Sequence record: LR746137 | Length of the DNA: 64,000 nt | DNA from: Escherichia phage vB_EcoM_UP17 | Direction: 5' to 3' (one strand) | Shown here: positions 2,537-56,278 of the stretch, piece after piece | Position numbering within the stretch: the stretch's first letter is position 1 | Layout: each line of letters opens with the position of its first letter | Made by a program: the position numbers and the translations under genes | Notes under the pieces: model-generated | Databases searched by the model: none | What the model was told of the DNA's origin: nothing | What the model saw: only the letters and a program-made list of their open reading frames with translations

Positions 2537-2545
2537 TTTTTCTCC

Positions 2546-3154
2546 TTAGTTTTTAAAATTGTTCAAAGTGTTAAAAACATCCAAACATGTTAGCCACTGA
2601 TCTTCTAAACCTGTGATCACAACATTTGGTTTTTTCTTTAGTTCTTCTAGATGATTATCTTTATAAGGCGTATTAAAATATATTTTAACCACTTCATCTG
2701 GAAAATATAGTAGGTTATCAGCCCTGTCATCTATTGCTATATCACAAGGCAATAAGTATTTTTCTTTCGTAGCAAAAAAGCCGTTACCAGATCCTTTGCT
2801 AAAATCAATCGTATCTAACGTTCTTAAAACATGCTTATGTTTAGAACTTAAGTGACCACCTTTTGTCACACTTGCGATCAAAAGATTGCTACCTTTCCTT
2901 GAAACATACTTTAAGAAATCTGGCATACCTGGAACAAAACCCATTGTATCATAGAGATGAGGATTATCCAGAAATCCGTAAGGATCTATATTGAACTCCT
3001 CCCTGAAACCAGGAAAGTAGTTGGTAAGATCATAGTCTGCATTTTTTGTGAATGTGTCTATCTTAACACCAAGTCCACTAATCTTATTCAACCATTCTAA
3101 CCAAGCAACATCTAATGGAGCCACAACTAAATCCCAATCACATACTATCTGCAT
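2546..3154 (-). CDS. HAD-superfamily nucleotidase-like protein (possible 5'-deoxynucleotidase)
   Basis: N-terminal CDWDLVV (DxD-type HAD motif I) and later IAIDDRADN (acidic motif); adjacent to thyX. Confidence 0.4.
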   Translation of the reverse strand: MQIVCDWDLVVAPLDVAWLEWLNKISGLGVKIDTFTKNADYDLTNYFPGFREEFNIDPYGFLDNPHLYDTMGFVPGMPDFLKYVSRKGSNLLIASVTKGGHLSSKHKHVLRTLDTIDFSKGSGNGFFATKEKYLLPCDIAIDDRADNLLYFPDEVVKIYFNTPYKDNHLEELKKKPNVVITGLEDQWLTCLDVFNTLNNFKN

Positions 3155-3190
3155 AAAACCTCCTCTCTCTTTTAGTATAGTTATCTTATA

Positions 3191-3766
3191 CTAACTTTCA
3201 ATTTCCTGCAATAGGATTTTGACTATTTGTTTGCGGCGTTTCGCTACTGTGCTTTCAGGTTCTATTTTACGCTTCTTCAACCAAGCTTTATCTTTCTTAG
3301 CTCTACACAAAGCTATTGCTTCTTTTTCAGCTTTCGCTTCTTCAAAAGATATACCTTGTTTATCTGCATAAGCAAGAATAGAGTTGCACAATTTACAAAC
3401 CATTCGCAAATCTTCTTCTTTCACATAGATCAAACGGAAAACAAAAAGGGGAATATCCTCAAAACATTGAAGTTGTTTTGCTGCGTGAATATGATCCACT
3501 TGGAAGTCTTTCATTCCTCCTCTGTGTCCACATATTTCGCACTCACAATTCCAAACTTGTTTTGGTTTTCCAGTTTTCTTGTCTATCATCACATTGCCGT
3601 CTTTATCTACACGATCAACTTTAAAACGCCTTGCATTGATAACCTTAATTTTATTAGGGTGTCTCATCCATGCTTTTCTAAAACATCCCCTAAGATAAGT
3701 ATAAAATTCAGCTTGTGTTTTCCAGGGTGTTCCTTCACCCCACATTATTTTTGGTTCATCTGCCAA
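3191..3766 (-). CDS. HNH endonuclease (free-standing homing-endonuclease-like)
   Basis: CECEICGHRGGMKDFQVDHIHAAK ... CKLCNSIL: Cys pairs flanking a His-rich HNH core. Confidence 0.6.
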   Translation of the reverse strand: MADEPKIMWGEGTPWKTQAEFYTYLRGCFRKAWMRHPNKIKVINARRFKVDRVDKDGNVMIDKKTGKPKQVWNCECEICGHRGGMKDFQVDHIHAAKQLQCFEDIPLFVFRLIYVKEEDLRMVCKLCNSILAYADKQGISFEEAKAEKEAIALCRAKKDKAWLKKRKIEPESTVAKRRKQIVKILLQEIES

Positions 3767-3933
3767 TATTGCTCACCTTTTTAGCTGTATATTCCCCTGG
3801 TGGGATATTGTGTTTAAAAAACAAAAGGCGGTCTAACCCCGCCTTGCACATTGTTTCTGGAATAGTCAAAGTTAGTAAAAGTTTATCACCTTTTCGGTTG
3901 AATATTTTATAAACTTCTCCTGCTCCATATTGT

Positions 3934-4335
3934 TTAGTATTGCTCGCCACTAATACGTTCCTTAAGTTGTTTAATAGCTTCGATTGCATCTACATAAGAA
4001 GAGTTATACATGTGTTTCAGTGCTACTCGTACTAAAGGATCTTTTGTGAAGAAATCAATAAGAAGCATAGCTTGATCATGTTTAGCTGCATTTGTCATAG
4101 ATGGATAATTTTCACGAACCATATACGTGTTATTTTGCATAAGGGTTCTTTCTAGTTCAATACAATGAATAGCTTTATCTAGGTTAATCTGACGTTCACC
4201 TTTAATACGTGTTGCGTATTTTGCCAATTTGCAAAAACAAGGTGTGCCACCAACCAAATAAGCTAGTTCAATAGGTTGCATTGCCATTTTTGTGTAGTGA
4301 TCACCGTCAACCTGATTATCAAAAGCATTAGACAT
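3934..4335 (-). CDS. hypothetical protein (133 aa)
   Basis: ORF from track; no motif recognised. Confidence 0.4.
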   Translation of the reverse strand: MSNAFDNQVDGDHYTKMAMQPIELAYLVGGTPCFCKLAKYATRIKGERQINLDKAIHCIELERTLMQNNTYMVRENYPSMTNAAKHDQAMLLIDFFTKDPLVRVALKHMYNSSYVDAIEAIKQLKERISGEQY

Positions 4336-4600
4336 AATTTTCCTCCTGAATTCCTACTGCGCCTTCTTCTGGGTAGTCTGTATAATAAGCTACCCTACCT
4401 TGATAGATAACATCACCATCATCATTGTAGATTGCTGTATCTTCTTGAATTGTTATTTCAACGTCAAGTAAATCTGGGTCTTTCTCGATGGTATAGTTTA
4501 GACCTAACATTTCAAACAGTTCGAAAATTTCGTTACCTGTTAATGTAATGCTCATATTTCCTCCTTTTATTGTGGTTAGCAGAGTATACACTAATATCAA
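4328..4600 (-). CDS. hypothetical acidic protein (90 aa)
   Basis: ORF from track overlapping the upstream stop by 8 nt. Confidence 0.35.
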   Translation of the reverse strand: MILVYTLLTTIKGGNMSITLTGNEIFELFEMLGLNYTIEKDPDLLDVEITIQEDTAIYNDDGDVIYQGRVAYYTDYPEEGAVGIQEENYV

Positions 4601-4611
4601 ATTTTTGTCAA

Positions 4612-4635
4612 TAAAAAAGGGAGCAATAAGCTCCC
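4612..4635 (-). terminator. putative rho-independent terminator (minus strand)
   Basis: GGGAGC-AATAA-GCTCCC hairpin; on the minus strand it is followed by TTTTTTATT, immediately downstream of the 4642 stop. Confidence 0.45.
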
Positions 4636-4641
4636 TGATTA

Positions 4642-5601
4642 TTAGATTCCAATAATAGTTGCTGCTCGTTTATCTTTGGATCTGGTGTTTGCTCTACTAC
4701 GTGACAAACCTCCACAAGATTCACAACGAATGATATCGAAAGAACTTACCGCAGTGTGGTATTGCTTACCAGTAACAACGTGAACATGATCACTGCCGCA
4801 ACGAGAACAACGGACTTTCTCATCTGGGTAATAAGCGGATAAGTTAGGATGCTGTGGAATCCACGGAAGGATTTTCATATACAAATCACGGAGTGAAACA
4901 ACATCGCCATCATTGTAAATCTGCATACGTTCAAAAGCATCACGATCACCTTCACAACATGCTTTCCATAAAGGGAACCCCTCGTTATCCAGTTTTTCAC
5001 TTTCTGTTTCGAAATATGCTCCCATTTCTTTAAGGGAGTTGGAAGGAAGTGCAAATTGTTTCTTAGCTGCCTTCAATGTATCAACAACTACATAATTAGA
5101 AGGAGGAGCCATATCGTGATATGCAAATCGTTGGTTAATGTATGCACGGTCAAACTTATACCCGTTGTGTGCCACAACTACATCTGCCTCATTCAGAAGG
5201 TTCCACAGATCTTGGCAAAGCTCCCAATCATCTGTATGATCAATATCAAAAAGAGGATAAGAAGACAAGTTCTTACCTTCCACTTCACCAGTATACAGGT
5301 CAGCAGAAGAGTAAGATAACAAATAACCCCTACGAATTACTTGATCTGGAGAAATGAAGGCTTTGAATCGACGGAAAGTATATGCAATCTCTGGTGCAGT
5401 TTCAACATCAATAATTTTAATAACGGGTTGTTTCTTTTTAACTGGCTCTTGTTTACTTGCTCCAAATCGTGCAAGGAAATCGTTCACTGTGCTTTTTCTT
5501 GTTGGACTACCTAAAACAATTGCTGCAATATTGCGAGAAGACATACCCTCTGCACTCATACTAAGGATATCTGCTTTCTGCTCTTCTGTTAATCTGCTCA
5601 C
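4642..5601 (-). CDS. DnaQ-like 3'-5' exonuclease with N-terminal HTH and C-terminal zinc ribbon
   Basis: IKIIDVETAPE (Exo I DxE) and VVAHNGYKFDRAY (Exo II HNxxFD); N-terminal SSRNIAAIVLGSPTRKSTVNDF HTH-like; C-terminal CSRCGSDH...CESCGG. Confidence 0.55.
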   Translation of the reverse strand: MSRLTEEQKADILSMSAEGMSSRNIAAIVLGSPTRKSTVNDFLARFGASKQEPVKKKQPVIKIIDVETAPEIAYTFRRFKAFISPDQVIRRGYLLSYSSADLYTGEVEGKNLSSYPLFDIDHTDDWELCQDLWNLLNEADVVVAHNGYKFDRAYINQRFAYHDMAPPSNYVVVDTLKAAKKQFALPSNSLKEMGAYFETESEKLDNEGFPLWKACCEGDRDAFERMQIYNDGDVVSLRDLYMKILPWIPQHPNLSAYYPDEKVRCSRCGSDHVHVVTGKQYHTAVSSFDIIRCESCGGLSRSRANTRSKDKRAATIIGI

Positions 5602-6287
5602 TCTGCCTCCTGTTGCGAGATGTATGACTGAAGCATACTCTCAAATGTTGTATCGTCATTATCCCAGCGTTTCATGTATACCAACTGGAAAATTGTTTCT
5701 ATCCATTCATCTGTTGTCATATGGACTTCTTCTCCATCCCAAGAAGTAAAATTAACACCATCTGGGAACCACGAGTAGTAAGTATCTTTAACTGTTTGGA
5801 AAAGCTCTGCTTGAGTTTTACAAGCTGAGAGAAGATTAAAACAAGTAATATCTCCAAACTTAATATCAAAATCTTGATAAGGTCGGATACTATCTGTTTT
5901 ATCTCCCATTAGCATCTGATAGGCTAACCAATAACTTCCCCAACCTTTAACTTCTTTCTTTTTACCTTTATCTACGATCCATATGTCGCCAATAGACTCG
6001 TCAATAAGAATTATATCTGGATTTTTAAATACTCCATCCTCTTTGTAGAAATTAAAAAGGATACTAGGAGTATGTAAACTATCTTTATCTATAGACACTA
6101 CAATATAAGAAAATTTACCCGTCCTTTTATAATCTTTATAACCTTGGAAACCATACTTCTCTAACTCATCGTCAGCCTCTATTACAGTAACAACATCGCC
6201 ATTGTGGAATTCCACAAGATAATCTTTGGTTTCTGAAAGCTGAAGTGGTTTGATATCTAATCGTTCAGACTTATATTCTACAGGCAT
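5598..6287 (-). CDS. hypothetical protein; ATG-initiated part of a longer open frame (see findings)
   Basis: 229-aa ORF from ATG 6287; same frame stays open with no ATG/GTG/TTG/CTG for 147 further codons up to the stop of the 6729-6938 ORF. Confidence 0.4.
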   Translation of the reverse strand: MPVEYKSERLDIKPLQLSETKDYLVEFHNGDVVTVIEADDELEKYGFQGYKDYKRTGKFSYIVVSIDKDSLHTPSILFNFYKEDGVFKNPDIILIDESIGDIWIVDKGKKKEVKGWGSYWLAYQMLMGDKTDSIRPYQDFDIKFGDITCFNLLSACKTQAELFQTVKDTYYSWFPDGVNFTSWDGEEVHMTTDEWIETIFQLVYMKRWDNDDTTFESMLQSYISQQEAE

Positions 6288-17619: not shown

Positions 17620-17691
17620 GGCCCTGTAGCTCAATGGGAGAGCTGTCGGCTCATAACCGATAGGTAGCTGGATCGAAACCAGCCAGGGCCA
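17620..17691 (+). tRNA. tRNA-Met (anticodon CAT)
   Basis: Hand-folded cloverleaf: acceptor GGCCCTG/CAGGGCC, anticodon loop CTCATAA, T-arm GCTGG-ATCGAAA-CCAGC, encoded CCA. Confidence 0.7.
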
Positions 17692-17696
17692 CCAAC

Positions 17697-17768
17697 GTCT
17701 TTATGGTGTAATGGATAGCACAGGAGTCTTCTAAACTCTTAGTCAAGGTTCGATTCCTTGTAAAGACA
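17697..17768 (+). tRNA. tRNA-Arg (anticodon TCT)
   Basis: Acceptor GTCTTTA/TAAAGAC, anticodon stem GGAGT/ACTCT with loop CTTCTAA, T-arm CAAGG-TTCGATT-CCTTG, CCA encoded. Confidence 0.7.
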
Positions 17769-17967
17769 CCAGAACATTTTAACATGAATTAGCTCAAGTG
17801 ATTTGAACCCACTACTGATCATAGTGGCAGAGAATGAGGCAAGTATGTCAGACATTGTAAACAAAGGCCACGGTTACATTAGAAGATATAAATGCTCGAA
17901 GAGCACCGTTCGCTGAGAACGGGGGTTGGTGGAGTCACCATTCATGGTAAAATGTTTTAAAAAACTA

Positions 17968-17996
17968 TTGACAACTAACATTATTTTATGTTAGAT
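17968..17996 (+). promoter_or_regulatory. sigma70-like promoter (TTGACA, TATGTTAGAT)
   Basis: AAAACTATTGACAAC followed 13 nt later by TATGTTAGATTATAAG, 10 nt before tRNA-Ser. Confidence 0.45.
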
Positions 17997-18005
17997 TATA
18001 AGTAT

Positions 18006-18093
18006 GGAAGGGCAAATCGACGTGGTGACGAAAACGGTCTTGAAAACCGCCGAGCTTGAAAGAGCCTTGGGAGTTCGACTCTCCCTCCTTCCG
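18006..18093 (+). tRNA. tRNA-Ser (anticodon TGA), class II
   Basis: Acceptor GGAAGGG/TCCTTCC, anticodon loop CTTGAAA, long variable arm, T-arm GGGAG-TTCGACT-CTCCC, CCA encoded. Confidence 0.7.
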
Positions 18094-18101
18094 CCAGATT
18101 A

Positions 18102-18184
18102 GGTAGATTGGTGAAATGGTAGCCACGACAGTTTGCTAAACTGTAGTCGGAAACGGCGTGTAGGTTCGAGTCCTACATCTACCG
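18102..18184 (+). tRNA. tRNA-Ser (anticodon GCT), class II
   Basis: Acceptor GGTAGAT/ATCTACC, anticodon stem ACAGT/ACTGT with loop TTGCTAA, long variable arm, T-arm GTAGG-TTCGAGT-CCTAC. Confidence 0.7.
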
Positions 18185-18314
18185 CCAAGTTGTTTTTAAT
18201 GTAGCGTTGCGGCTACTTACTTTAGCAGAGTAAATCTTCGGCAAGTGGCGGTAACCACTTTACCGATACCGCATAGTCAGTAAGGCGAATACTGGCTACT
18301 TTAAAAACAATTTT

Positions 18315-18395
18315 GTGAGATTGGCAGAGTGGTCGATTGCGGGGGACTGTAAATCCCTTCTGAAAGGCGCGGTGGTTCGAATCCATCATCTCACA
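18315..18395 (+). tRNA. tRNA-Tyr (anticodon GTA), class II
   Basis: Acceptor GTGAGAT/ATCTCAC, anticodon stem GGGGA/TCCCT with loop CTGTAAA, long variable arm, T-arm GGTGG-TTCGAAT-CCATC. Confidence 0.7.
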
Positions 18396-18404
18396 CCAAA
18401 TTAA

Positions 18405-18487
18405 GATGAGTTGGCTGAATGGTTTAAGCGGCGGACTGTTAATCCGTGTTCGAAAGAACGATATAGGTTCAAATCCTATACTCATCG
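18405..18487 (+). tRNA. atypical class II tRNA, anticodon loop CTGTTAA (reads as GTT, Asn) with 15-nt variable arm
   Basis: Acceptor GATGAGT/ACTCATC, anticodon stem GCGGA/TCCGT, variable region GTTCGAAAGAACGAT, T-arm ATAGG-TTCAAAT-CCTAT; isotype assignment uncertain. Confidence 0.5.
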
Positions 18488-18497
18488 CCAGAATTAT

Positions 18498-18575
18498 GGA
18501 CTTGTAGAGTTAAGGTAAAACCTCCAGTCGCCAAGAGGCTTCTGGAATTGCAGGTATCGAATCCTGCCGAGTCCC
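18498..18575 (+). pseudogene. degenerate tRNA-like element
   Basis: Good 7-bp acceptor GGACTTG/CGAGTCC and T-arm GCAGG...CCTGC, but T-loop is 8 nt (TATCGAAT) and no canonical anticodon arm or CCA could be folded. Confidence 0.3.
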
Positions 18576-18581
18576 AGATTT

Positions 18582-18653
18582 GCTCCTATAGTATAATGGC
18601 TATTACAACGGTTTTGTAATCCGTGGATCTCTGTTCGATTCAGAGTGGGAGCA
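18582..18653 (+). tRNA. tRNA-Thr (anticodon TGT)
   Basis: Acceptor GCTCCTA/TGGGAGC, anticodon loop TTTGTAA, T-arm CTCTG-TTCGATT-CAGAG, CCA encoded. Confidence 0.7.
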
Positions 18654-18929
18654 CCAACACAACATTAAGAGCACTGTGATTGATCGTCGTATCCTGTGCA
18701 CAAGGTCTGTTCGAAAGACAGTGTTCTTAGTATTGTGTTGATCACACAAAGAGTCACCTGAAACTTGACCGGAGTAGGGTTGGATGGGGCAAAAGAAGAA
18801 GCGGCTCTCCCATCGACAGCAACGAAGAATAATATTTGACTTTAGTTTTGTATTATTTTAAGTTAGCTTACCGAACGTAGGGCTAGTCACCCAACGGGAT
18901 ACTCGTCACTGTCCCACTCAATAAAACTA

Positions 18930-18959
18930 TTGACAACCAATAGTAAAATGTAGTATAGT
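18930..18959 (+). promoter_or_regulatory. sigma70-like promoter with extended -10 (TTGACA, TGTAGTATAGT)
   Basis: AAAACTATTGACAACC followed 13 nt later by TGTAGTATAGT, 11 nt before tRNA-Gly. Confidence 0.45.
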
Positions 18960-18970
18960 AAAGATGTAGG

Positions 18971-19041
18971 GCGTTCTTGGTGTAGCGGTAGCATTCCGTC
19001 CTTCCAAGTCGGCGGCACGAGTTCGATCCTCGTAGGACGCT
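18971..19041 (+). tRNA. tRNA-Gly (anticodon TCC)
   Basis: Acceptor GCGTTCT/AGGACGC, anticodon loop CTTCCAA, T-arm ACGAG-TTCGATC-CTCGT, CCA encoded. Confidence 0.65.
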
Positions 19042-19142
19042 CCAAATTATTTAATAAAGGGTTGCCAGAAAACTTTCTCTTTTACTCATGGTTTTCTCCT
19101 TCTCTCACACCTCTTCTGGTTGCCCTTCATTAAATGATTTAT

Positions 19143-19215
19143 TGGTTTGTAGTGTAGTCAGGTAGCACACGACACTTTGACTGTCGTAGGTTTGGTTCAA
19201 ATCCAGACAGACCAG
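19143..19215 (+). tRNA. tRNA-Gln (anticodon TTG)
   Basis: U1-A72 acceptor TGGTTTG/CAGACCA (as in enterobacterial tRNA-Gln), anticodon stem CGACA/TGTCG with loop CTTTGAC, T-arm TTTGG-TTCAAAT-CCAGA, CCA encoded. Confidence 0.65.
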
Positions 19216-19223
19216 CCATATAA

Positions 19224-19297
19224 CGGAATTTAGCTCAGTTTGGTAGAGCATACGCTTTGGGAGCGTAGGGTCGCAGGTTCGAATCCTGCAATTCCGA
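19224..19297 (+). tRNA. tRNA-Pro (anticodon TGG)
   Basis: Acceptor CGGAATT/AATTCCG, anticodon stem TACGC/GCGTA with loop TTTGGGA, T-arm GCAGG-TTCGAAT-CCTGC, CCA encoded. Confidence 0.7.
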
Positions 19298-19306
19298 CCA
19301 ATTTAA

Positions 19307-19377
19307 TGTTTCGTAGTTCAATGGTAGAACCCACGACTGATAATCGTGAGACACAAGTTCGATTCTTGTCGAAACAA
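19307..19377 (+). tRNA. tRNA-Ile (anticodon GAT)
   Basis: Acceptor TGTTTCG/CGAAACA, D-stem GTTC/GAAC, anticodon stem CACGA/TCGTG with loop CTGATAA, T-arm ACAAG-TTCGATT-CTTGT, CCA encoded. Confidence 0.65.
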
Positions 19378-19382
19378 CCAGT

Positions 19383-19452
19383 TTCCCGTTAGACTTACAG
19401 GATAAGAGTTCCACAGCTTATTGTGATGCTGGTTCGAATCCAGCACGGGATA
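19383..19452 (+). pseudogene. degenerate tRNA-like element
   Basis: Canonical T-arm GCTGG-TTCGAAT-CCAGC and 6-bp acceptor, but the anticodon region folds as CACAG-CTTA-TTGTG (4-nt loop) and no CCA is encoded. Confidence 0.3.
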
Positions 19453-19458
19453 CATAAT

Positions 19459-19534
19459 AGCGGGATAGAGGAGTCTGGTCGTCCTCGCCAGTTTCATATG
19501 CTGGAGATCATTGGTTCAAATCCAATTCCCGCCT
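19459..19534 (+). tRNA. tRNA with anticodon CAT (Met or lysidine-type Ile2)
   Basis: Acceptor AGCGGGA/TCCCGCC with mismatched 1:72, D-stem GAGG/CCTC, anticodon stem CCAGT/GCTGG with loop TTCATAT, T-arm ATTGG-TTCAAAT-CCAAT, CCA encoded. Confidence 0.6.
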
Positions 19535-19652
19535 CCAAATATCGCTTGCCAGCGGTATCTTTGAAGAACTTGCCTGGTTCCTTCTAAGATGGAGGGGTGC
19601 GACTCCTTAACGCACAATCATAATAAAGCATTTCAAATTAACAGTATTTATT

Positions 19653-20352: not shown

Positions 20353-20402
20353 TAATGCCCCTTCTCTTCCTAAAATAAAATTTTATGAGGAAGCAGAAGA
20401 TA

Positions 20403-20795
20403 ATGAATCTAAAGACTAAAACTGTATTAGGTTTTGTTTTAATTGTTGTTCTTATTCTTACCGGAATGTTTGCTTATAACAAGATACGTGAGTCTGGCTA
20501 CAAAGATGGTGTTGCCTATCAAACGCAATTATATCAAGCAGCCCAAGCAAAAGCAAAACAAGATTTTGATGTTCTTCAAAAAAGAGCAGATGAAGAAAGA
20601 GCATTATTAAATACTCAAATAAACAACTTGTCTAAAAACAATGCACAATTAAAAGCAGATTTAGAGAAGAAGAAACAAACGATCAATGAGGATACAACGA
20701 ATTATGCAAAAACTAATTCTGGCAGTATGTCTTGCTTTGCCCCTAATGATGACGGGTTGTTCATCATCAACAAAAGTTTCCCCAGTTCTTATTGA
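20403..20795 (+). CDS. i-spanin (Rz-like inner-membrane spanin)
   Basis: Start taken at the internal ATG behind GAGGA; N-terminal TM VLGFVLIVVLILTGMFAY then coiled-coil periplasmic region; the o-spanin frame is embedded at its 3' end. Confidence 0.55.
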   Translation: MNLKTKTVLGFVLIVVLILTGMFAYNKIRESGYKDGVAYQTQLYQAAQAKAKQDFDVLQKRADEERALLNTQINNLSKNNAQLKADLEKKKQTINEDTTNYAKTNSGSMSCFAPNDDGLFIINKSFPSSY

Positions 20796-21030
20796 TGAGT
20801 GTAAGGCTGTAGCCATAGAAAAGGTTAAAGGTCCAGATTCGGACTTGATGGATAAAGTATCGACACCTGTGCCATACACTAAAAATCAAATTGCAAAAGG
20901 GGTTAGTAGATCTGAAGTTGTTAACAACCAAACTCAAAACAATGCTCTTTGGGAGCAAGATAGACGGAAGGTTTTAGGTTTACAAACATATATTAAAACA
21001 CTGCAAGAAAAAGGTATTATTGCTGAATAA
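20704..21030 (+). CDS. o-spanin (Rz1-like outer-membrane lipoprotein)
   Basis: Signal peptide with lipobox LMMTGC; starts inside the i-spanin gene in a different frame and extends past its stop. Confidence 0.55.
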   Translation: MQKLILAVCLALPLMMTGCSSSTKVSPVLIDECKAVAIEKVKGPDSDLMDKVSTPVPYTKNQIAKGVSRSEVVNNQTQNNALWEQDRRKVLGLQTYIKTLQEKGIIAE

Positions 21031-21039: not shown

Positions 21040-23115
21040 GTGGCAAAGAAAAAGGCAGCAGGTAGTTTAGCTGGAGTAGATATTGAAGTAAAGGCTCAAC
21101 CAGGTAAACAGACTCTTGCAATGGATTTAATGCCAGAAGTTATGATTTATGGTGGTGCCGCTGGATGTGTTTCTGCTGAAACGGAATATCTTACAAAAGA
21201 TGGTTGGAGACAGATTAGTGAATATTCGGGAGAGGATATTTACCAATACAACCCTAAGAATAAGCGTTTAGAATTGGTAACACCTTATTTTGTAGAATAC
21301 GATTTAAATGGAGATAACCTATACAGAATAACAAATGGTGTAGGATTGTTCCAAGAACTTAGTATGGAACACCGTTTTGTATTCTATAAGAAAAAGAAAT
21401 CAAAGAAACATTTCGAGATTCTTGTAGGAGATCTTATTGCATTACAGCAAATAGGAAAACCCCTTCAAGGTTATGTAGAAAATCCATTTGGTAAACGTGT
21501 TCCTTTTAACATACCTGGTAAAAAGAGCACTTACTTAAAAATACACGAGGTTATTTCAACAGATGATAAGAAATATTGTTTTGAGACTCCAAGCAGCTAT
21601 ATTGTCTTTAGACGTGGCGATCACTGCTTCGTTACTGGGAATAGCGGCAAGTCTCGTCTGCTATTGCTGAAAGCTTTAAAATACGCCTACAAAGACCCTT
21701 TGTTTGGTGGAATACTTTTCCGTAAGAACACCACTGCTCACCGTAAACCAGGTGGTCTGTTTACAGAAGCAAAACGTTTGTATCTTCCTTTACAACCGCA
21801 CGTAAAAGAAAGTACAATGGATATCATTTTTGAAGCCACTGGTGGTGGAACTCTCAAATTTGACCATTTGGAAAATGATAACGTAACAGCAGAAACAAAC
21901 CATCAGGGTACACAGTATTCAATGGTAGGCTTTGACGAGTTAACCCACTTCACGCAATATGAAATGCTCTATCTTCTGGGACGTATGCGTTCAGAATCAG
22001 AAACAAGTTTCATGTTGTGCACATGTAACCCCGATGCAGATAGTTGGGTTTTGAATTGGGTGTTACCTTATCTTGATGAGGGTGGTTATCCTAGGGAAGA
22101 TATGTGTGGTAAACAAAAATATTTCATCATTGTTAACGATGAACCTGTTTTTGCTGACACGCCTGAAGAACTGAAAGAAAAATATCCAGAAAACTGTTTC
22201 ATGGAAAACCCTAATACAGGGGAGACAGTTGTTATTGAACCACAGACTTTCGTATTTATTGGTGGGACAATATTTGATAACCCAGAACTCATTAGGCTTA
22301 ACCCTAATTACTTAGCACAGCTTAAATCACAAACAGCGATCAAAAGAGCACAGCTTCTGGACGGTTGTTGGTTTGCACGTATCCAGAAAGAATCTTTCTT
22401 TCAACGTGAATGGTTACATAAAATATCTTATAAAGATGTTCCTAATAATCTTAAACTAATGCGAGCATGGGATAAAGCTGTTTCAGTTCCTACAGAAACC
22501 TACCGTTATCCAGACTATACAACATCTGTCAAAATGGGTAAAGACCAAGATGGTAATATCTACATCTTTGGCGACTATGATTATGATGCTGTGGATGAGA
22601 AAAGTAAAATTTTCGGAAGGTTTAGAAGACTACCTGGAGAAAGGGATAATCTGATTCTTAACCAATGCAAGATTGATGGACCAGAAGTTACAGTAGTGCT
22701 TCCTAAAGACCCATCTGGTGCTGGGACAATAGAATACACAGAGTCTGCAAAGAAACTTATTCTAGAGGGTTTTGTTGTTAAACCAGATGCTATGCCAGGT
22801 AACAAGAAAAAGCTTCAGCGTTTTATGCCTTTTAGTAGTGCGTGTCAAAACGGTTTTGTTTATATTGTTGAAGATTCTTTCCCTAATGTGGAAACTTTAA
22901 CCCACTTTTATAAAGAATTGGAATCTTTCAATGGTGAAAGATCTACAGCCACTATTAAAGATGACATTCCCGATGCTGCTGCTTCTTGTTTTAATACTCT
23001 GTCAAAAGAAAATACTTTCAAGGCAGTAGCTATCCCTGCAACAACAAATGCTCCTACAGGATACAGTAGAATGAACAGTGGATTTCACCAACCGTATAGT
23101 GTCCGTAAAAGATAA
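21040..23115 (+). CDS. terminase large subunit, with mini-intein in the Walker A motif
   Basis: GTG start behind AAGGAGGG; Walker A split as YGGAAG / intein / SGKS; Walker B MVGFDELTHF; CTCNP motif. Confidence 0.8.
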   Translation: MAKKKAAGSLAGVDIEVKAQPGKQTLAMDLMPEVMIYGGAAGCVSAETEYLTKDGWRQISEYSGEDIYQYNPKNKRLELVTPYFVEYDLNGDNLYRITNGVGLFQELSMEHRFVFYKKKKSKKHFEILVGDLIALQQIGKPLQGYVENPFGKRVPFNIPGKKSTYLKIHEVISTDDKKYCFETPSSYIVFRRGDHCFVTGNSGKSRLLLLKALKYAYKDPLFGGILFRKNTTAHRKPGGLFTEAKRLYLPLQPHVKESTMDIIFEATGGGTLKFDHLENDNVTAETNHQGTQYSMVGFDELTHFTQYEMLYLLGRMRSESETSFMLCTCNPDADSWVLNWVLPYLDEGGYPREDMCGKQKYFIIVNDEPVFADTPEELKEKYPENCFMENPNTGETVVIEPQTFVFIGGTIFDNPELIRLNPNYLAQLKSQTAIKRAQLLDGCWFARIQKESFFQREWLHKISYKDVPNNLKLMRAWDKAVSVPTETYRYPDYTTSVKMGKDQDGNIYIFGDYDYDAVDEKSKIFGRFRRLPGERDNLILNQCKIDGPEVTVVLPKDPSGAGTIEYTESAKKLILEGFVVKPDAMPGNKKKLQRFMPFSSACQNGFVYIVEDSFPNVETLTHFYKELESFNGERSTATIKDDIPDAAASCFNTLSKENTFKAVAIPATTNAPTGYSRMNSGFHQPYSVRKR
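21166..21642 (+). mobile_element. mini-intein (159 aa, no endonuclease domain) inside the terminase P-loop
   Basis: Starts CVSAET (Cys1, block A-like), internal SMEH (TxxH-like), ends DHCFVTGN followed by Ser; removal restores GGAAGSGKS. Confidence 0.55.
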
Positions 23116-38842: not shown

Positions 38843-39315
38843 TGGCAGATTTAACTACGATCAAAGTTTCTGATCTTACACAAACAACCTCTGTATCTGA
38901 TACAGATTTCTTTGTAACAGATCAGGCTGGAATAACAAAGAAGACTTCTTTGAAAGTGCTGTTGAGTGGTGCAGGGGTAACTAGAAACCGTTTAAATGCA
39001 CGTGGAACAGTAACTAGCACCTTGGCATTAGATATTAGTTCAGCAGAATATTTTTCGGCAACTTTATCTTCTGCAACATGCACAATTAGTTTTACTAATA
39101 TTCCAGTAGCAACGAATGCAGTTTTAAACTTTACTTTAGCTTTGCGTCAAGGAAGTGGCGCAAATAAAGTCGTATGGCCTTCTTCTGTAAAATGGAGTTT
39201 TGGTCGTTCCCCAGTTTTGAGTTATCGTCAAGGTGCAACAGACACTTTTGAGTTTATCAGTTATGATAATGGTGCAACTTGGACAGGTAGCTTAGTTTTA
39301 GCAGGAGTTATTTAA
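38842..39315 (+). CDS. tail/baseplate protein candidate (157 aa)
   Basis: ATGA-overlapped; Ser/Thr-rich. Confidence 0.3.
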   Translation: MADLTTIKVSDLTQTTSVSDTDFFVTDQAGITKKTSLKVLLSGAGVTRNRLNARGTVTSTLALDISSAEYFSATLSSATCTISFTNIPVATNAVLNFTLALRQGSGANKVVWPSSVKWSFGRSPVLSYRQGATDTFEFISYDNGATWTGSLVLAGVI

Positions 39316-42191
39316 TGTCAAGAGTTAAGCACAATATTGACAACACGTTTCAGTTGATTGAAGGGTTGGTTCAGTTTTTGGAAAGAAATACTGGGCTTAC
39401 CATAGATCCTACGGTTCAGCATTACATTATCAACCCACAAAACGTATTGGCGAACAACAGACACTTTATTAACTGGACAGCGCAGGAAGGGCAACCAAAC
39501 GGTGACGCTACTACCGAAGGTCAATCTGTGCTTATCACTGGTTTTGCTTATGCATATTTGGCTACAGGGGATAAAAAATATCTTGAATCTGCCGAGAAGT
39601 ATTGGCAAGCCTATATAGATCACTTCTTCGGGGGCCAACCTATTCCTGATCCTCCGGCTAAGTATCGTCCCAACTGGATCATCAATGGTAAAGAACCACG
39701 TTTAGCACATTACCCTCTCACAGATGATGGGTATCCTACGCACGGTGGGTTCAAAGGTAGCATGATGACTTGGATTAACGGAAGGACTGTTATTCCTAAA
39801 GGTGCACCGCATTGGGGGGAATACTTAGATAAAGCTTGGTTTGCTTTCAATGGCAATCTTGGTTGGAACTCCGTTAACGCAACAGTTTATGCAACTAATC
39901 CAGATGGTTCAACCAACTGGAAAGAATATGGAGATCAGTGGGACGTTGAATGGATTATAGATCGTCTAGGACGTAAAGTTGATTGGGATGGTAACATTTT
40001 ATCTACAGGTCACAGCTTCGCAGAATATGGAACAGTGCAACTTAAAAATGCTTCTGTGAACGGTGATTATAAATTCAACTACGCTACATGCAACCCTGTA
40101 GAACACGGTGGATATCTGCTTAAGCGTAATGAGATGTGGCATAACCGTCCTGTAAACGTTCCGGTAGAGTTAGGTTATCAAGATAATGCTTCCGATGCTG
40201 AAACGTGGTGGTGTGATGCAAACTACTTGATGTATCAGATCACAGGAGAGAGAAAATACTGGCTTTGCTGGCAATCTTCTTTATTGTTGTGTCAAGACTA
40301 CTCAAACATCGATATGTTTGATAAATTCTTCCGTAGATCTACGACAGCAATAATTCCTTTTACAGATGGTATCTCGTATGATTACTCATACCCATCTACA
40401 GCAATACCTAAATATTCTCGTGACGAATTAGGATACACAGTAATTCGCCAAGATGTTTCAGCACAAACAACTCTAGAACAACAGGCAGTTTGGTTCAGAG
40501 TAGATCAGAATTCAAAACTGCGTATTGAGTTTCAAGGTGTAGATGATGCAGGGGAAGGTGTTCTTTTCCGTCCAGAGCTAGAATTAAGCAAAACTAAGAG
40601 TGAAACAGACACAGTGACATATCGTTGTGGCTTACCTCTTGGTGCAGCTAATATGACTAAGATGGATATACCTTTATCTAGTTTTATGCGCACCGAACCT
40701 CCTGGAGGTGGTGTATATATTATTGCTGAACCCAGAATTATTGTTGACTGGGGAAGCAATACTGTGATACAATATAAATATGCAACTGGTATTGCTGGGA
40801 CAAATAGTGATCAGATAGTTTCTGCTAATATGGATTCAGATGGTGGTTTTACTGTTGGGTTTTGGTTAACACCAACTAAAACAGCCAATTTAAAATCTAT
40901 TACATATCGTTCATACGCAGATGATTTTAACATCACTATTACGGATTCCGCAGGTTGGAGATGGTGGGCCATGTTAGAAAAAACAAATTCTGCATGGGTT
41001 ACTAAAGCTTTAAGTCCTGCTGATTTCAAATTAAGCACTTGGCAACCCAATCATAACGACACAGAGACAAAACCTTCGTCAATAAACCTGACTGCTGTTG
41101 ATCAGATCAGCATTGCATTGGATTCTGAACCTGCAAATGGCTTGACAGGGGCAATCGATTTTTATTGTGTTAACGATATCCCATCTTTGTATTCTTCAGC
41201 CGCTGGTGATGATTACACAATGTATTTCAGGGTTACAGTTTCATCTGAAAATCCTTATACAGCAAAACTTGGAGATTGTACAATACTGGACTATAAACTT
41301 GACAGTTTGAATTATACTCCAGGAATCATTCCATTTTCCAATATTAGTGATCCTAACACAGCATTATATGACGGTTGGCGTGGTATTCCTTACCCAGGTT
41401 ATCAATACCCATCCTTATATTGTTTTAAAGGGAGAGATATTGACTGGGTTCGTATGAACAACAGTATAGACTTTTTATATGATTCACAAATGTGGTTTTA
41501 TAATAAGTTTGCCCCTGTGATGCCTGGGCCAATGGCACAAGCTTATGTTTGGGATCGTTGGGATGCTCATAAATATGGAAACAAGAATGAGTTCACAATG
41601 TATCATTGGAACGATAAAGCTTGGGATGGTTATGAAGCACGAGCATTCTTCTGTGCGTGTCATACAGTATACGAACTGAAACAACGAGGAGCAGAAGTTC
41701 CTGAAAAACTTTTAACAGTTTGTAAAAACTGGATCAATTATCTGAAGTGGTTCCAAGATAACAACGAAGGAAGAACACCAACAATATTTTATCCCAACGG
41801 AGAAGTGGCTGCGCCTGTAGATGACTTTACAAGTCACATGTCTGCGCTCTTTATGGCGGGATGTGCTATAATGGGGATGGCTGGATATGATTCAGAAATT
41901 CCTAACATTAAAATAGTAGCAGATCGCTGTTTTGAACTTATTCAGGAAAATTATATTGTTCTTGGTCCTAATCACGTTATGAATGGTTGTTGGAGTGCTG
42001 CCCCTAGACCAGACAGTGATAACGGAGTCTTCTTTGGCTTCCACGCCGGAGAGTTGTTACGTGGTTTTGGGTTGTATGCCTTATACAAAAAACTTAATCC
42101 CCAAAATGCATTACCTGTTTTGGATTCGAGCAATATTCCTGCACTTACTGTTTTGACAATGGCAAACATTAGTGTGGACGTTACCGAGTAA
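39315..42191 (+). CDS. large virion structural protein (958 aa)
   Basis: Large Trp/Tyr-rich ORF inserted between the gpW-like and gpJ-like genes. Confidence 0.4.
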   Translation: MSRVKHNIDNTFQLIEGLVQFLERNTGLTIDPTVQHYIINPQNVLANNRHFINWTAQEGQPNGDATTEGQSVLITGFAYAYLATGDKKYLESAEKYWQAYIDHFFGGQPIPDPPAKYRPNWIINGKEPRLAHYPLTDDGYPTHGGFKGSMMTWINGRTVIPKGAPHWGEYLDKAWFAFNGNLGWNSVNATVYATNPDGSTNWKEYGDQWDVEWIIDRLGRKVDWDGNILSTGHSFAEYGTVQLKNASVNGDYKFNYATCNPVEHGGYLLKRNEMWHNRPVNVPVELGYQDNASDAETWWCDANYLMYQITGERKYWLCWQSSLLLCQDYSNIDMFDKFFRRSTTAIIPFTDGISYDYSYPSTAIPKYSRDELGYTVIRQDVSAQTTLEQQAVWFRVDQNSKLRIEFQGVDDAGEGVLFRPELELSKTKSETDTVTYRCGLPLGAANMTKMDIPLSSFMRTEPPGGGVYIIAEPRIIVDWGSNTVIQYKYATGIAGTNSDQIVSANMDSDGGFTVGFWLTPTKTANLKSITYRSYADDFNITITDSAGWRWWAMLEKTNSAWVTKALSPADFKLSTWQPNHNDTETKPSSINLTAVDQISIALDSEPANGLTGAIDFYCVNDIPSLYSSAAGDDYTMYFRVTVSSENPYTAKLGDCTILDYKLDSLNYTPGIIPFSNISDPNTALYDGWRGIPYPGYQYPSLYCFKGRDIDWVRMNNSIDFLYDSQMWFYNKFAPVMPGPMAQAYVWDRWDAHKYGNKNEFTMYHWNDKAWDGYEARAFFCACHTVYELKQRGAEVPEKLLTVCKNWINYLKWFQDNNEGRTPTIFYPNGEVAAPVDDFTSHMSALFMAGCAIMGMAGYDSEIPNIKIVADRCFELIQENYIVLGPNHVMNGCWSAAPRPDSDNGVFFGFHAGELLRGFGLYALYKKLNPQNALPVLDSSNIPALTVLTMANISVDVTE

Positions 42192-42199
42192 GGGGTAAA

Positions 42200-44353: not shown

Positions 44354-44361
44354 GAGTAAAA

Positions 44362-46428: not shown

Positions 46429-46661
46429 AACAAAACCCCGCTTCGGCGGGGAAATTATAAAGGTACGATCAGGGACTTCATTACGATTCACACAAACTAT
46501 GTCCTGCAAGCGCATGTCATCGCCATGTGATAAAATGATGAAAACATATCGTAGCAGGGTTAATCTTGTCTTTAGTTACTATCGTACTAACTCAAAGTGT
46601 TGTCACTACCACTGCAAGCCCCTCCAAAGAGGGGCTTACTTAGAAAAACAAAGAGGTTGTT

Positions 46662-46811
46662 ATGAATGAAATGTTCTCCCAAGGCGGTATTGCCCCAGGT
46701 ATTACTGCCATTAGTTTTAGTGCTGCTGTACTTGTGCATTCAGCGGGTTCTGTAGACCTTGGGGAATTAACTGTATCTCGTGATTTAAAAAGTAATGAGA
46801 ACGCACTATGA
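46662..46811 (+). CDS. small ORF (49 aa), not in track
   Basis: ATG behind AAAGAGG; ATGA-coupled to the next ORF; mildly hydrophobic core GIAPGITAISFSAAVLV. Confidence 0.25.
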   Translation: MNEMFSQGGIAPGITAISFSAAVLVHSAGSVDLGELTVSRDLKSNENAL

Positions 46812-47050
46812 GAAAGTTTTTAATCGGAATGTTTTGTACTTATCCAAACAACAAAATCAGTTCTACTAAAGTGTGGAACGCACTGGGAATGCTAACCATG
46901 ACAGGCATGTTTATCTTTTTAGGAATAGAAAAAGAAATTCCTGAATGGATGGGTTGGGCTTTTGTTTTCATGATAACTCCTTCTCGCCTCATGAAAAATC
47001 TTATTGATTTACGCTGGGGCAGATCACAATCTACCAAAGAGGATGACTAA
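46808..47050 (+). CDS. small two-TM membrane protein (80 aa)
   Basis: Hydrophobic segments FLIGMFCTY and MTGMFIFLGI...WMGWAFVFMI; stop overlaps the start of the gpJ-like gene. Confidence 0.35.
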   Translation: MRKFLIGMFCTYPNNKISSTKVWNALGMLTMTGMFIFLGIEKEIPEWMGWAFVFMITPSRLMKNLIDLRWGRSQSTKEDD

Positions 47051-48537: not shown

Positions 48538-48539
48538 AA

Positions 48540-49169: not shown

Positions 49170-49178
49170 GGAGTTTAA

Positions 49179-50786: not shown

Positions 50787-50795
50787 GGGATCACT

Positions 50796-51131: not shown

Positions 51132-51134
51132 TTA

Positions 51135-54188: not shown

Positions 54189-54193
54189 TGGAA

Positions 54194-54212: not shown

Positions 54213-54249
54213 TTCTTCCAATAGAATGGTCTAATGATAGGAGAGATAA

Positions 54250-56274: not shown

Positions 56275-56278
56275 CAGA

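What the first reader, a model, noticed from the sequence alone, without database searches (positions are those of the whole stretch)
21166..21642. Mini-intein inserted exactly in the Walker A P-loop of the large terminase
The terminase reads IYGGAAG, then a 159-aa insert beginning CVSAET and ending DHCFVTGN, then SGKSRLLLL. Removing the insert recreates an uninterrupted P-loop GGAAGSGKS. The insert begins with Cys, ends with Asn and is followed by Ser, as required for protein splicing, and is too short to hold a homing endonuclease. The penultimate residue is Gly rather than the usual His.
Basis: partly seen in the sequence, partly recalled or inferred. Interest (0 to 1): 0.65.

Follow-up and report, generated by a model that had tools for sequence, protein, structure and literature searches.

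The report
Self-splicing mini-intein in phage terminase P-loop
The DNA-packaging motor gene of this E. coli phage is interrupted, in the middle of its ATP-binding loop, by a 159-residue self-excising protein element (a mini-intein). It belongs to a large phage intein family that Pfam and NCBIfam miss, so it is a real but fairly ordinary kind of element that no checked record for this well-studied phage group annotates.

Summary
The window is a phAPEC8-like coliphage (Phapecoctavirus). Its terL ORF (21040-23115) carries an in-frame 159-aa insert (21166-21642), GGAAG|C...TGN|SGKS. More than 60 insert-free TerL homologs read GGAAGSGKS without interruption.

Pfam and NCBIfam see nothing in the insert. 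However:
- A family profile also finds that intein by sequence (E 1.4e-9).
- Relatives at the same site are 146, 246 or about 325 aa. The largest fold as HINT plus LAGLIDADG homing endonuclease.
- Presence is sporadic among Vibrio-phage-like and metagenomic TerLs but fixed in Stephanstirmvirinae.
- In that clade the insert's dN/dS (0.05-0.08) is close to that of the extein.

The penultimate Gly is a family trait (179/185). It is shared with AceL NrdHF, where changing it to His abolishes activity.

New here: the family keeps both Cys1 (186/186) and the class-3 block F Cys (C138; 183/185) plus Thr G:5. Whether splicing follows class 1, class 3 or a relay is therefore open. Splicing itself was not tested.

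Verdict: a new member of a known kind, of moderate interest.

The parts
21040..23115 (+). terL precursor ORF. It is 691 aa (78.7 kDa), has a GTG start, and the coordinates include the stop codon.
   Evidence: ORF list. PHROG 979 terminase large subunit, E 1.5e-216. Pfam Terminase_6N. 98.8% DNA identity to the phAPEC8 terL region.
21040..21165 (+). N-extein, 42 aa, ending ...MIYGGAAG. This is the first half of the Walker A motif.
21166..21642 (+). Mini-intein: 159 aa, 18.6 kDa, a HINT domain without an endonuclease.
21166..21216 (+). Block A (N1), CVSAETEYLTKDGWRQI. Cys1 is at 21166-21168.
   Evidence: C1, T6, G13 and W14 are invariant in alignment A1. Cys1 is present in 186/186 family members.
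21343..21384 (+). Block B (N3), GLFQELSMEHRFVF. S66 is B:7, H69 is B:10 (21370-21372), R70 is B:11 and F71 is B:12.
   Evidence: Family counts: His 186/186, S/T 176/186, Arg 100/186, and B:12 is never Trp. The same S..HR. pattern occurs in AceL NrdHF (PMC7891396).
21385..21543 (+). Central linker, residues 74-126, including a Lys-rich loop (YKKKKSKKHF) and one helix. It occupies the position where larger relatives carry the LAGLIDADG endonuclease.
   Evidence: Alignment A3. Secondary structure of the model. pLDDT is lowest here, 71-86.
21568..21612 (+). Block F (C2), KKYCFETPSSYIVFR. C138 is F:4 (TGT at 21577-21579). The aromatic F148 falls at the F:15 position by spacing.
   Evidence: K136, Y137 and C138 are invariant. 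Cys is present in 183/185 family members. The Cys-to-Asn spacing is 21 residues, the same as in MP-Be DnaB (C320-N341, PMC2807308).
21622..21645 (+). Block G (C1) plus the +1 residue, HCFVTGN|S. T157 is G:5, G158 is G:6, N159 is G:7 and Ser+1 is at 21643-21645.
   Evidence: Family counts: G:5 is T/S in 174/185, Gly in 179/185, Asn in 185/185. The +1 residue is S 96, C 54, T 25.
21643..23112 (+). C-extein, 490 aa, starting SGKSRLLLL. It holds the second half of Walker A, the rest of the ATPase domain, and the nuclease domain.
   Evidence: Pfam Terminase_6N and Terminase_6C on the spliced sequence.

Best explanation
The 159-residue insert is a functional, endonuclease-less intein (a HINT domain). 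It is translated as part of a 78.7-kDa TerL precursor and removes itself after translation. The flanks GGAAG and SGKS are joined by a peptide bond, giving a 60.1-kDa terminase with an intact Walker A loop.

Shown:
- the sequence anatomy and the fold prediction;
- homology to a characterised intein;
- the empty-site alleles;
- endonuclease-bearing relatives at the same site;
- purifying selection on the insert.

Inferred:
- Splicing occurs and is needed for packaging, because 159 residues inside the P-loop would prevent ATP binding.

Proposed chemistry (inferred). His69, helped by Ser66 and held by Thr157, strains the Gly(-1)-Cys1 bond. The N-extein is moved onto a thiol, then to the Ser+1 hydroxyl. 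Asn159 cyclises, with Arg70 (B:11) standing in for the missing penultimate His. An O-to-N shift then finishes the peptide bond.

Both Cys1 and Cys138 (block F:4) are invariant. My best guess, at about 0.4, is that both take part: Cys1 thioester, then Cys138 thioester, then the Ser+1 ester. Pure class 1 and pure class 3 each get about 0.3.

Evolutionary reading (inferred). The element descends from a mobile LAGLIDADG-containing intein that homed into this P-loop site. It lost its endonuclease and became fixed and vertically inherited in the Stephanstirmvirinae.
For: Excision and insertion site
- Precise excision restores the exact P-loop of insert-free homologs.
- In a sample of the family's closest representatives, the commonest insertion point is this Walker A position, just before [S/T/C]GK[S/T]: 94 of 173.

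Fold and homology
- The profile of 23 inserts hits the AceL NrdHF intein sequence at E 1.4e-9.
- The catalytic constellation is identical to AceL NrdHF except residue 1: S-x-x-H-R, Cys F:4, T-G-N, Ser+1 (PMC7891396).

Relatives and mobility
- Inserts at the same site are 146, 158-159, 246 and 323-328 aa.
- The 246-aa form has lost the first LAGLIDADG motif.
- Distribution is sporadic. The extein of P0076 (with intein) is 86% identical to intein-less P0047, and P0083 is 87% identical to intein-less P0046.
- The same family occurs in RtcB, PolA, PhoH, helicases, clamp loader and RNR.

Selection and alternatives excluded
- dN/dS of the intein is 0.048-0.084 against 0.041-0.064 for the extein, with saturated dS.
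- No RNA intron signature is found.
Against: - No experiment shows splicing for this protein, and no proteomic data were found.
- Pfam and NCBIfam intein/Hint models give no hit at E<=1, so recognition rests on structure prediction and a custom profile.
- Two canonical helpers are absent: the penultimate His (here Gly) and the block F His (here Ile146).
- In this clade the element is present in all members. Within the clade there is therefore no empty-site allele to prove mobility or dispensability.
- The assignment of C138 to F:4 rests on spacing, conservation, the model's strand positions and whole-domain structural matches, not on a printed residue-level superposition.
Confidence: 0.9

Rival explanations
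1. Pure class 3 mechanism. Cys138 (F:4) attacks the Gly(-1)-Cys1 peptide bond directly, as in AceL NrdHF and MP-Be DnaB. Cys1 is not the nucleophile and is conserved for another reason, for example packing or redox control.
For: - The closest characterised relative is a proven class 3 intein in which C124 (F:4) is essential (PMC7891396).
- The Cys-His-Thr triad is intact (C138, H69, T157) and conserved family-wide.
- The +1 residue is Ser, as is typical for class 3 (PMC2807308).
- Tori et al. list three WCT inteins that start with Ser or Cys.
- From memory, not verified here: the Ser1-bearing Dra Snf2 intein forms the block F branched intermediate (Brace 2010).
Against: - Cys1 is invariant in 186/186 family members. 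A class 3 intein does not need a nucleophile at position 1 (PMC5222942) and usually lacks one: 34 of 37 in PMC2807308.
- B:12 is never Trp in this family.
- By the operational definition of Hoffmann et al. (no Cys at position 1), the family is excluded.
Confidence: 0.3
2. Ordinary class 1 mechanism. Cys1 performs the N-S shift and Ser+1 attacks the Cys1 thioester directly. Cys138 only replaces the usual Asp F:4 as a non-covalent helper.
For: - Cys1, S/T-x-x-H, Asn and Ser+1 are all present.
- Class 1 inteins with Cys at F:4 are known and polyphyletic (Tori & Perler 2011, as cited in PMC3196547).
- B:12 is hydrophobic, as in class 1. AceL NrdHF also 'behaved more like class 1' at that position.
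Against: - The near-invariance of Cys at F:4 (183/185), together with T/S at G:5 (174/185), is the class 3 signature and is not expected for a mere helper.
- The nearest solved homolog uses that Cys covalently.
Confidence: 0.3
3. Conditional (redox-gated) splicing. Cys1 and Cys138 lie next to each other in the active site and can form a disulfide. This would hold TerL as an inactive precursor until conditions are reducing, and so time or throttle DNA packaging.
For: - In 6zgq the modelled F:4 thiol is 3.0 A from the N-scissile carbonyl, so it is next to residue 1.
- The class 3 P-loop mini-intein Msm DnaBi1 is switched off by a disulfide involving its F:4 Cys (PMC6195587).
- The two cysteines are invariant.
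Against: - There are no data for this protein.
- The E. coli cytoplasm is reducing.
- Conservation of both Cys is equally explained by catalysis.
- Model coordinates could not be inspected, so the Cys1-Cys138 distance in this intein was not measured.
Confidence: 0.15
4. The insert is a retained, non-excised domain, or a dead intein. TerL either works with it in place or is complemented by another terminase.
For: - All members of the clade carry it.
- Pfam does not call it an intein.
Against: - It splits GxxxxGK[ST] between x3 and x4.
- All splice-junction and catalytic residues are invariant, while the linker region varies.
- The family occurs at catalytic sites of many unrelated enzymes.
- No second family copy and no second TerL-like ORF were seen in the parts of the window examined. 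The rest of the phage genome lies outside the window and was not examined.
- The phages are viable lytic isolates.
Confidence: 0.03

Closest known systems
AceL NrdHF-1-1 intein (PDB 6ZGQ; Hoffmann et al. 2020, PMC7891396), a naturally split class 3 intein from a phage-like Ace Lake metagenome contig
   Same: - The residues line up as Ser B:7, His B:10, Arg B:11, non-Trp B:12, Cys F:4, no His at F:13, Thr G:5, Gly G:6, Asn G:7 and Ser+1.
- Size is similar: 146 aa against 159 aa.
   Different: - AceL NrdHF starts with Ala1; the window intein and all 186 close relatives examined start with Cys1.
- AceL NrdHF is split into two genes with a GIY-YIG gene between them; this one is contiguous.
- The hosts differ: the RNR beta-like NrdHF against TerL.
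- Sequence identity is only about 21%.
Mycobacteriophage TerL inteins (Kelley et al. 2016, PMC5050341; Gosselin et al. 2025 bioRxiv)
   Same: - They are inteins in the ATPase domain of phage large terminases, several of them in the Walker A loop.
- They were shown to splice, and some carry active LAGLIDADG endonucleases.
- The paper makes the same argument, that the precursor cannot assemble or bind ATP.
   Different: - Their P-loop sites (TerL1-a between Lys and Thr; TerL1-b one residue away) lie in Terminase_1-type TerL. Here the site is two residues upstream of the Lys, in a Terminase_6-type TerL; their TerL6 intein sits in the C-motif.
- The intein lineage appears different. The mycobacteriophage class 3 inteins are described with a WCT motif, whereas this family never has Trp at B:12; their penultimate residue was not examined here.
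Class 3 inteins (MP-Be DnaB prototype, Tori et al. 2010, PMC2807308; Msm DnaBi1, PDB 6BS8)
   Same: - Cys at F:4 with the same 21-residue spacing to the terminal Asn.
- Thr at G:5.
- Ser/Thr at +1.
- Phage association and P-loop insertion.
   Different: - Cys1 is retained.
- Trp B:12 is replaced by Phe (by V/I/M/L in relatives).
- The penultimate His is replaced by Gly.
- The structural match to 6BS8 is weak (Foldseek E 2.6e-3).
Sce VMA1 intein (PI-SceI) and other P-loop inteins at G|CGKT
   Same: - From memory, not verified here: the insertion position within Walker A is the same, immediately before the S/T/C that precedes GK[ST].
   Different: - PI-SceI is a canonical class 1 intein.
- From memory, not verified here: it has Asp at F:4 and a His-Asn end.
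- It was not recovered by the family profile in the PDB sequence search.

Membership tests
Intein (HINT-domain protein-splicing element) | HINT fold | tested here: met
   [not shown]
Intein (HINT-domain protein-splicing element) | In-frame insertion whose precise removal restores a conserved host motif, with insert-free alleles existing | tested here: met
   GGAAG|...|SGKS becomes GGAAGSGKS, identical to more than 60 insert-free homologs.
Intein (HINT-domain protein-splicing element) | Splice-junction residues: a nucleophile or equivalent at the N junction, a C-terminal Asn, and Ser/Thr/Cys at +1 | tested here: met
   Cys1, Asn159 and Ser+1 are invariant in the family.
Intein (HINT-domain protein-splicing element) | Block B His (B:10) with Thr/Ser at B:7 | tested here: met
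   S66-x-x-H69. His is present in 186/186 and S/T in 176/186.
Intein (HINT-domain protein-splicing element) | Penultimate His (G:6). This is common but not obligatory. | tested here: not met
   Gly158, and Gly in 179/185 relatives. The same holds in the active AceL NrdHF intein, where G145H is inactive.
Intein (HINT-domain protein-splicing element) | Match to curated intein/Hint profiles (Pfam PF14890, PF01079, PF13403, PF07591; NCBIfam TIGR01445 and TIGR01443) | tested here: not met
   No hit at E<=1. Relatives in other hosts are equally invisible. PROSITE, SMART and CDD models could not be run.
Intein (HINT-domain protein-splicing element) | Actual protein splicing (a ligated extein plus a free intein) | not testable with these tools
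   This needs expression followed by western blot or MS. The predicted masses are 78.7 kDa going to 60.1 kDa plus 18.6 kDa.
Mini-intein (no homing endonuclease) | A single HINT domain with no endonuclease domain between blocks B and F | tested here: met
   The insert is 159 aa, and the model shows only a short helix and loops in residues 74-126. Large relatives have about 180 extra residues there that fold as LAGLIDADG.
Class 1 intein | Cys/Ser/Thr at position 1 | tested here: met
   Cys1 is present in 186/186.
Class 1 intein | Asp (or a non-nucleophile) at F:4. The linear thioester at residue 1 is the only intermediate before the block G branch. | tested here: inconclusive
   F:4 is Cys. Class 1 inteins with Cys at F:4 are reported (PMC3196547). 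The nature of the intermediate cannot be tested here.
Class 3 intein | Cys at block F position 4 | tested here: met
   C138 is invariant (183/185). Its spacing to Asn is 21 residues, the same as MP-Be C320-N341.
Class 3 intein | Thr at block G position 5 | tested here: met
   T157, and T/S in 174/185.
Class 3 intein | Trp at block B position 12 | tested here: not met
   F71 here, and V/I/M/L/F in the family, never Trp. AceL NrdHF also deviates, with Met.
Class 3 intein | No Cys/Ser/Thr nucleophile at position 1. This is the criterion of Hoffmann et al. and the usual, though not universal, criterion of Tori et al. | tested here: not met
   Cys1 is invariant.
Class 3 intein | A block F branched thioester intermediate, with the F:4 Cys essential | not testable with these tools
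   This needs C138A/S, C1A, N159A and S+1A mutants and thiol-lability assays.

The most novel reading that the evidence does not exclude
This intein, and the large phage family it represents, may be a mechanistic and evolutionary bridge between class 1 and class 3 inteins. It keeps the ancestral Cys1 nucleophile and also has the complete class 3 Cys(F:4)-His(B:10)-Thr(G:5) triad.

On this reading it splices through an obligate relay of two thioesters, Cys1 then Cys138, before the Ser+1 ester forms. It would correspond to the phage-borne progenitor state that Tori and Perler postulated for class 3 inteins. As an option, the Cys pair could also double as a redox gate on DNA packaging.
Probability: 0.3. 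Interest if true: 0.7.

Novelty: new member of a known kind. Interest (0 to 1): 0.42.

Why it matters
Practical points
- More than 130 deposited genomes of phAPEC8-like and phi92-like coliphages carry this insert. Many were characterised for phage therapy or biocontrol. The annotations listed under the matches name only 'terminase large subunit' or 'hypothetical protein' and never an intein.
- The BASEL collection's intein count missed it. EmilieFrey is listed with 0 inteins but has the insert.
- A 2024 paper states that no inteins are reported in E. coli or coliphages (PMC11162368).
- The predicted mature TerL is 60 kDa, not 79 kDa.

Annotation gap
- The underlying family is large: 8,125 representatives of 50%-identity clusters at E<=1e-3.
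- Its closest representatives sit in the P-loops of many phage ATPases, yet Pfam and NCBIfam did not detect the family in the members tested. Annotation pipelines that rely on those two libraries will miss it.

Scientific point
- The intein is native to E. coli phages, sits in an essential gene, and carries both candidate nucleophiles. It is therefore a convenient genetic system for asking how class 3 splicing arose from class 1, and whether splicing gates DNA packaging.

Tried and rejected
1. Pfam, NCBIfam and a direct PDB sequence search with the single insert gave nothing meaningful. Recognition needed a family profile and a predicted structure.

2. The word-indexed protein search with the insert alone returned only 5 close fragments. 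The useful relatives came from the extein search and the exhaustive profile search.

3. A profile of the C-terminal 45 residues against PDB sequences, meant to print a residue-level alignment of block F/G to 6ZGQ, returned only chance beta-hairpin matches to toxin A cell-wall repeats. The F:4 assignment therefore rests on spacing, conservation and the whole-domain structural matches.

4. P0001 and P0022, on one 7.1-kb contig, looked like a possible split intein. The two ORFs overlap by about 20 nt on a 5.7x-coverage assembly, just after an intact intein. This is most likely a frameshift artefact.

5. A group I intron or other RNA element was rejected as the explanation. No Rfam hit was found, and the insert evolves under codon-level purifying selection.

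6. A second copy of the family elsewhere in the window was looked for and none was found. Pfam shows no other intein in the large ORFs.

7. Tori & Perler 2011 (PMC3133030) is not held in the library. Its conclusions are cited only through later papers.

Full report
**1. What is in the sequence**

The window is a phAPEC8-like Escherichia coli myovirus (genus Phapecoctavirus, subfamily Stephanstirmvirinae). The terL region is 98.8% identical to phAPEC8 and 95-99% identical to 64 deposited phage records.

The ORF 21040..23115 (+ strand, GTG start, 691 aa) is the large terminase. It matches PHROG 979 at E 1.5e-216 and Pfam Terminase_6N. It lies between the spanin genes and the portal gene, as in annotated relatives.

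The coordinates, the reading frame, the Cys start, the Gly-Asn end and the following Ser are all exactly as stated.

**2. The empty site exists**

A search with the conceptually spliced protein found 1,974 TerL homologs.
- Among the best 120, those of about 505-530 aa read GGAAGSGKS or GGSAGSGKS without interruption. The closest are P0023, P0024 and P0025 at 62-64% identity.
- Every full-length homolog at 69% identity or more carries a 158-159-aa insert at the same point.
- More distant TerLs of Vibrio phages and unnamed metagenome contigs carry inserts of 146, 246 or 323-328 aa at the identical position. All begin with Cys, end in [T/S]-G-N and are followed by SGKS.
- Pfam aligns the spliced product to Terminase_6N from profile position 1 and scores it better than the precursor.

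**3. It is a HINT domain related to a characterised intein**

Pfam and NCBIfam intein/Hint models do not match at E<=1, and a single-sequence PDB search is empty.

An AlphaFold2 model built on 23 inserts is confident (pLDDT 89, pTM 0.82).
- Foldseek returns 38 intein, Hedgehog-Hog and BIL structures at E<=1e-3.
- An HMM of the 23 inserts finds that same chain by sequence alone (E 1.4e-9).

**4. It behaves like a mobile intein family**

The roughly 325-aa inserts align with the mini forms at both ends. They carry about 180 extra residues between blocks B and F, with LAGLIDADG-like motifs (LRLQVAVMADGR, HWDGS).
- Pfam LAGLIDADG_3 is only marginal (E about 0.01).
- The 246-aa form has lost the first LAGLIDADG motif. 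The 146-aa and 159-aa forms have lost the whole domain.
- Presence is sporadic among close relatives. The intein-bearing P0076 has an extein 86% identical to intein-less P0047. P0083 is 87% identical to intein-less P0046.

The same family interrupts unrelated proteins:
- Corynebacterium phage Lederberg RtcB (DIG|C...ITGN|CGM);
- Acinetobacter phage ME3 DNA polymerase A;
- the TerL of the E. coli phage 19-1-2 (Avunavirus), with a 329-aa form at the same P-loop site.

An exhaustive profile search of 1.84 billion representatives gives 8,125 hits at E<=1e-3 and 1,539 at E<=1e-10. Among the best 146 proteins:
- there are 173 inteins of this family;
- 94 sit in a Walker A loop immediately before [S/T/C]GK[S/T], and 13 sit in RtcB;
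- 144 are 280 aa or longer and 14 are shorter than 200 aa;
- 25 proteins hold two or more.

Hosts identified by Pfam include TerL, RtcB, a RecD-like helicase, a clamp loader, PhoH, ResIII/DEAD helicases, a DnaB-primase and ribonucleotide reductase. Pfam detects none of these inteins.

**5. In this phage clade it is fixed and under selection**

All Phapecoctavirus, Justusliebigvirus (phi92), Klebsiella and Citrobacter relatives have it. The nearest insert-free TerL is only 64% identical.

Nei-Gojobori dN/dS values:

| Comparison | Insert | Extein |
|---|---|---|
| window vs phi92 | 0.065 | 0.064 |
| window vs Citrobacter phage Tr1 | 0.084 | 0.041 |
| phi92 vs Tr1 | 0.048 | 0.043 |

Synonymous sites are saturated in all three comparisons. 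The insert is therefore translated and its protein function is maintained about as stringently as that of the essential terminase. No RNA intron family matches the region. The insert's GC content is 34.2% against 38.8% for the extein.

**6. How it most likely works**

A 159-residue domain between the fourth and fifth residues of GxxxxGK[ST] is incompatible with nucleotide binding. The phages are viable, so the domain must be removed. This is an inference. The same argument is made for mycobacteriophage TerL inteins, which were shown to splice (PMC5050341).

The catalytic residues map as follows:

| Residue | Block position | Family count |
|---|---|---|
| Cys1 | A:1 | 186/186 |
| Ser66 | B:7 | S/T in 176/186 |
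| His69 | B:10 | 186/186 |
| Arg70 | B:11 | 100/186 (Lys in 27) |
| Phe71 | B:12 | always hydrophobic, never Trp |
| Cys138 | F:4 | 183/185 |
| Thr157 | G:5 | T/S in 174/185 |
| Gly158 | G:6 | 179/185 |
| Asn159 | G:7 | 185/185 |
| Ser | +1 | S 96, C 54, T 25 |

Except for residue 1, this is the constellation of AceL NrdHF: A1, S65, H68, R69, M70, C124, T144, G145, N146, S+1. For that intein, Hoffmann et al. showed the following (PMC7891396):
- C124 is the essential class 3 nucleophile.
- T144 anchors His68.
- G145H abolishes activity.
- R69 contacts the C-scissile carbonyl and partly replaces the missing penultimate His.

The spacing from Cys138 to Asn159 is 21 residues. That equals the spacing from C320 to N341 in the class 3 prototype MP-Be DnaB. 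The aromatic F148 and T157 fall on that intein's F330 and T339 (PMC2807308).

**7. What remains open**

The family keeps both a class 1 nucleophile (Cys1, invariant) and the class 3 triad.
- A class 3 intein does not need a nucleophile at position 1 (PMC5222942) and usually lacks one: 34 of 37 in PMC2807308. Hoffmann et al. even define the class by the absence of Cys1.
- Class 1 inteins usually have Asp at F:4, although class 1 inteins with Cys there are known (PMC3196547).

I estimate about 0.4 for a relay or dual-nucleophile mechanism, 0.3 for pure class 1 and 0.3 for pure class 3.

In 6ZGQ the F:4 thiol lies 3.0 A from the N-scissile carbonyl, so a Cys1-Cys138 disulfide is sterically plausible. 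A redox switch through the F:4 Cys is documented for the P-loop class 3 mini-intein Msm DnaBi1 (PMC6195587). This is speculation for the present protein.

**8. Comparison with what is known, and novelty**

Inteins in phage terminases, including in the P-loop, are well known. Kelley et al. 2016 described them, and a 2025 survey counted 293 TerL inteins among actinobacteriophages. From memory, and not verified here, insertion just before the S/T/C that precedes GK[ST] is also the position of the yeast VMA1 intein. The kind of element is therefore not new.

What is new is more modest.

(i) No record checked annotates this intein.
- The feature tables of phi92, JohannJBalmer, EmilieFrey, PaulScherrer, Citrobacter phage Tr1 and Klebsiella phage FKP3 show only CDS entries for terL.
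- The annotations listed under the matches never name an intein.
- The BASEL table lists 0 inteins for EmilieFrey, whose TerL has the insert.
- A 2024 paper says no coliphage inteins have been reported.

(ii) It belongs to a large family that Pfam and NCBIfam do not detect in the members tested.

(iii) That family combines Cys1 with the class 3 triad and a Gly-Asn end.

I file it as a new member of a known kind, with moderate interest.

**9. Limits**

- Splicing, the nucleophile order and any regulation are untested.
- The top-150 sample is biased toward sequences resembling the query profile. Deeper members, such as the Ala1-bearing AceL NrdHF, may differ.
- Model coordinates could not be inspected.
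- PROSITE, SMART and CDD intein models were not available.

Noticed in passing
window 17620-19537: There is an array of 11 tRNA genes just upstream of the lysis and packaging genes: Met, Arg, Ser, Tyr, Asn, Thr, Gly, Gln, Pro, Ile, Met. The tRNA-Asn(GTT) call at 18405-18490 is 86 nt, which is unusually long for an Asn tRNA and may be a mis-assigned type II tRNA.
   Followed up: no
window 20385-20795 and 20686-21030: Two overlapping ORFs lie immediately upstream of terL. By position they correspond to the i-spanin and o-spanin annotated in BASEL relatives. The second has a lipobox-like LMMTGC.
   Followed up: partly
L008 (Klebsiella phage FKP3) 2938-4343: In this relative the terL gene carries the same intein. 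It is also broken downstream by a roughly 1.4-kb segment that encodes an HNH endonuclease, which is probably a group I intron or a free-standing homing endonuclease gene. terL is annotated there as two CDS.
   Followed up: no
L004 (Escherichia phage 19-1-2, Avunavirus) 2411-5156: This is another coliphage lineage (Vequintavirinae). Its TerL carries a 329-aa, endonuclease-sized member of the same intein family at the same P-loop site (GGAAG|CLSKDH...VVTGN|SGKS). Its terL is also annotated in two pieces, followed by an HNH homing endonuclease gene.
   Followed up: partly
P0131 (855-aa metagenomic TerL), residues 38-362 and 470-787: This terminase has two inteins. A member of the Pfam-invisible family sits in the P-loop. 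A second, different intein is weakly detected by Pfam Intein_splicing and LAGLIDADG_3. 25 of the 146 top representative proteins hold two or more inteins of the family.
   Followed up: partly
BASEL phages PaulScherrer (MZ501100) and JohannJBalmer (MZ501084), elsewhere in their genomes: The BASEL S5 table lists 2 and 1 inteins and one intron each for these phi92-like phages, but 0 for EmilieFrey. Additional, variable inteins therefore exist in this phage group outside terL. None was found in this window by the family HMM or by Pfam on the large ORFs.
   Followed up: partly
window 21388-21411 (intein residues 75-82): The Lys-rich loop YKKKKSKKHF in the intein's central linker is almost invariant across the whole Stephanstirmvirinae-like clade, although it lies outside the splicing blocks. 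It sits where relatives have the DNA-binding endonuclease. Its function is unknown.
   Followed up: no
window 39315-58991: There is a run of large ORFs with Tail_spike_N, collagen, RCC1-like, Big_2 and non-contractile tail sheath TIM-barrel domains. This looks like the multivalent receptor-binding apparatus typical of phi92-like phages.
   Followed up: no
L005 (ENA contig NODE_751, 7110 bp) 4001-6089: In this metagenomic relative terL is called as two overlapping ORFs of 245 and 457 aa, with the break just after an intact intein. At 5.7x coverage this is most likely an assembly frameshift rather than a split gene.
   Followed up: partly
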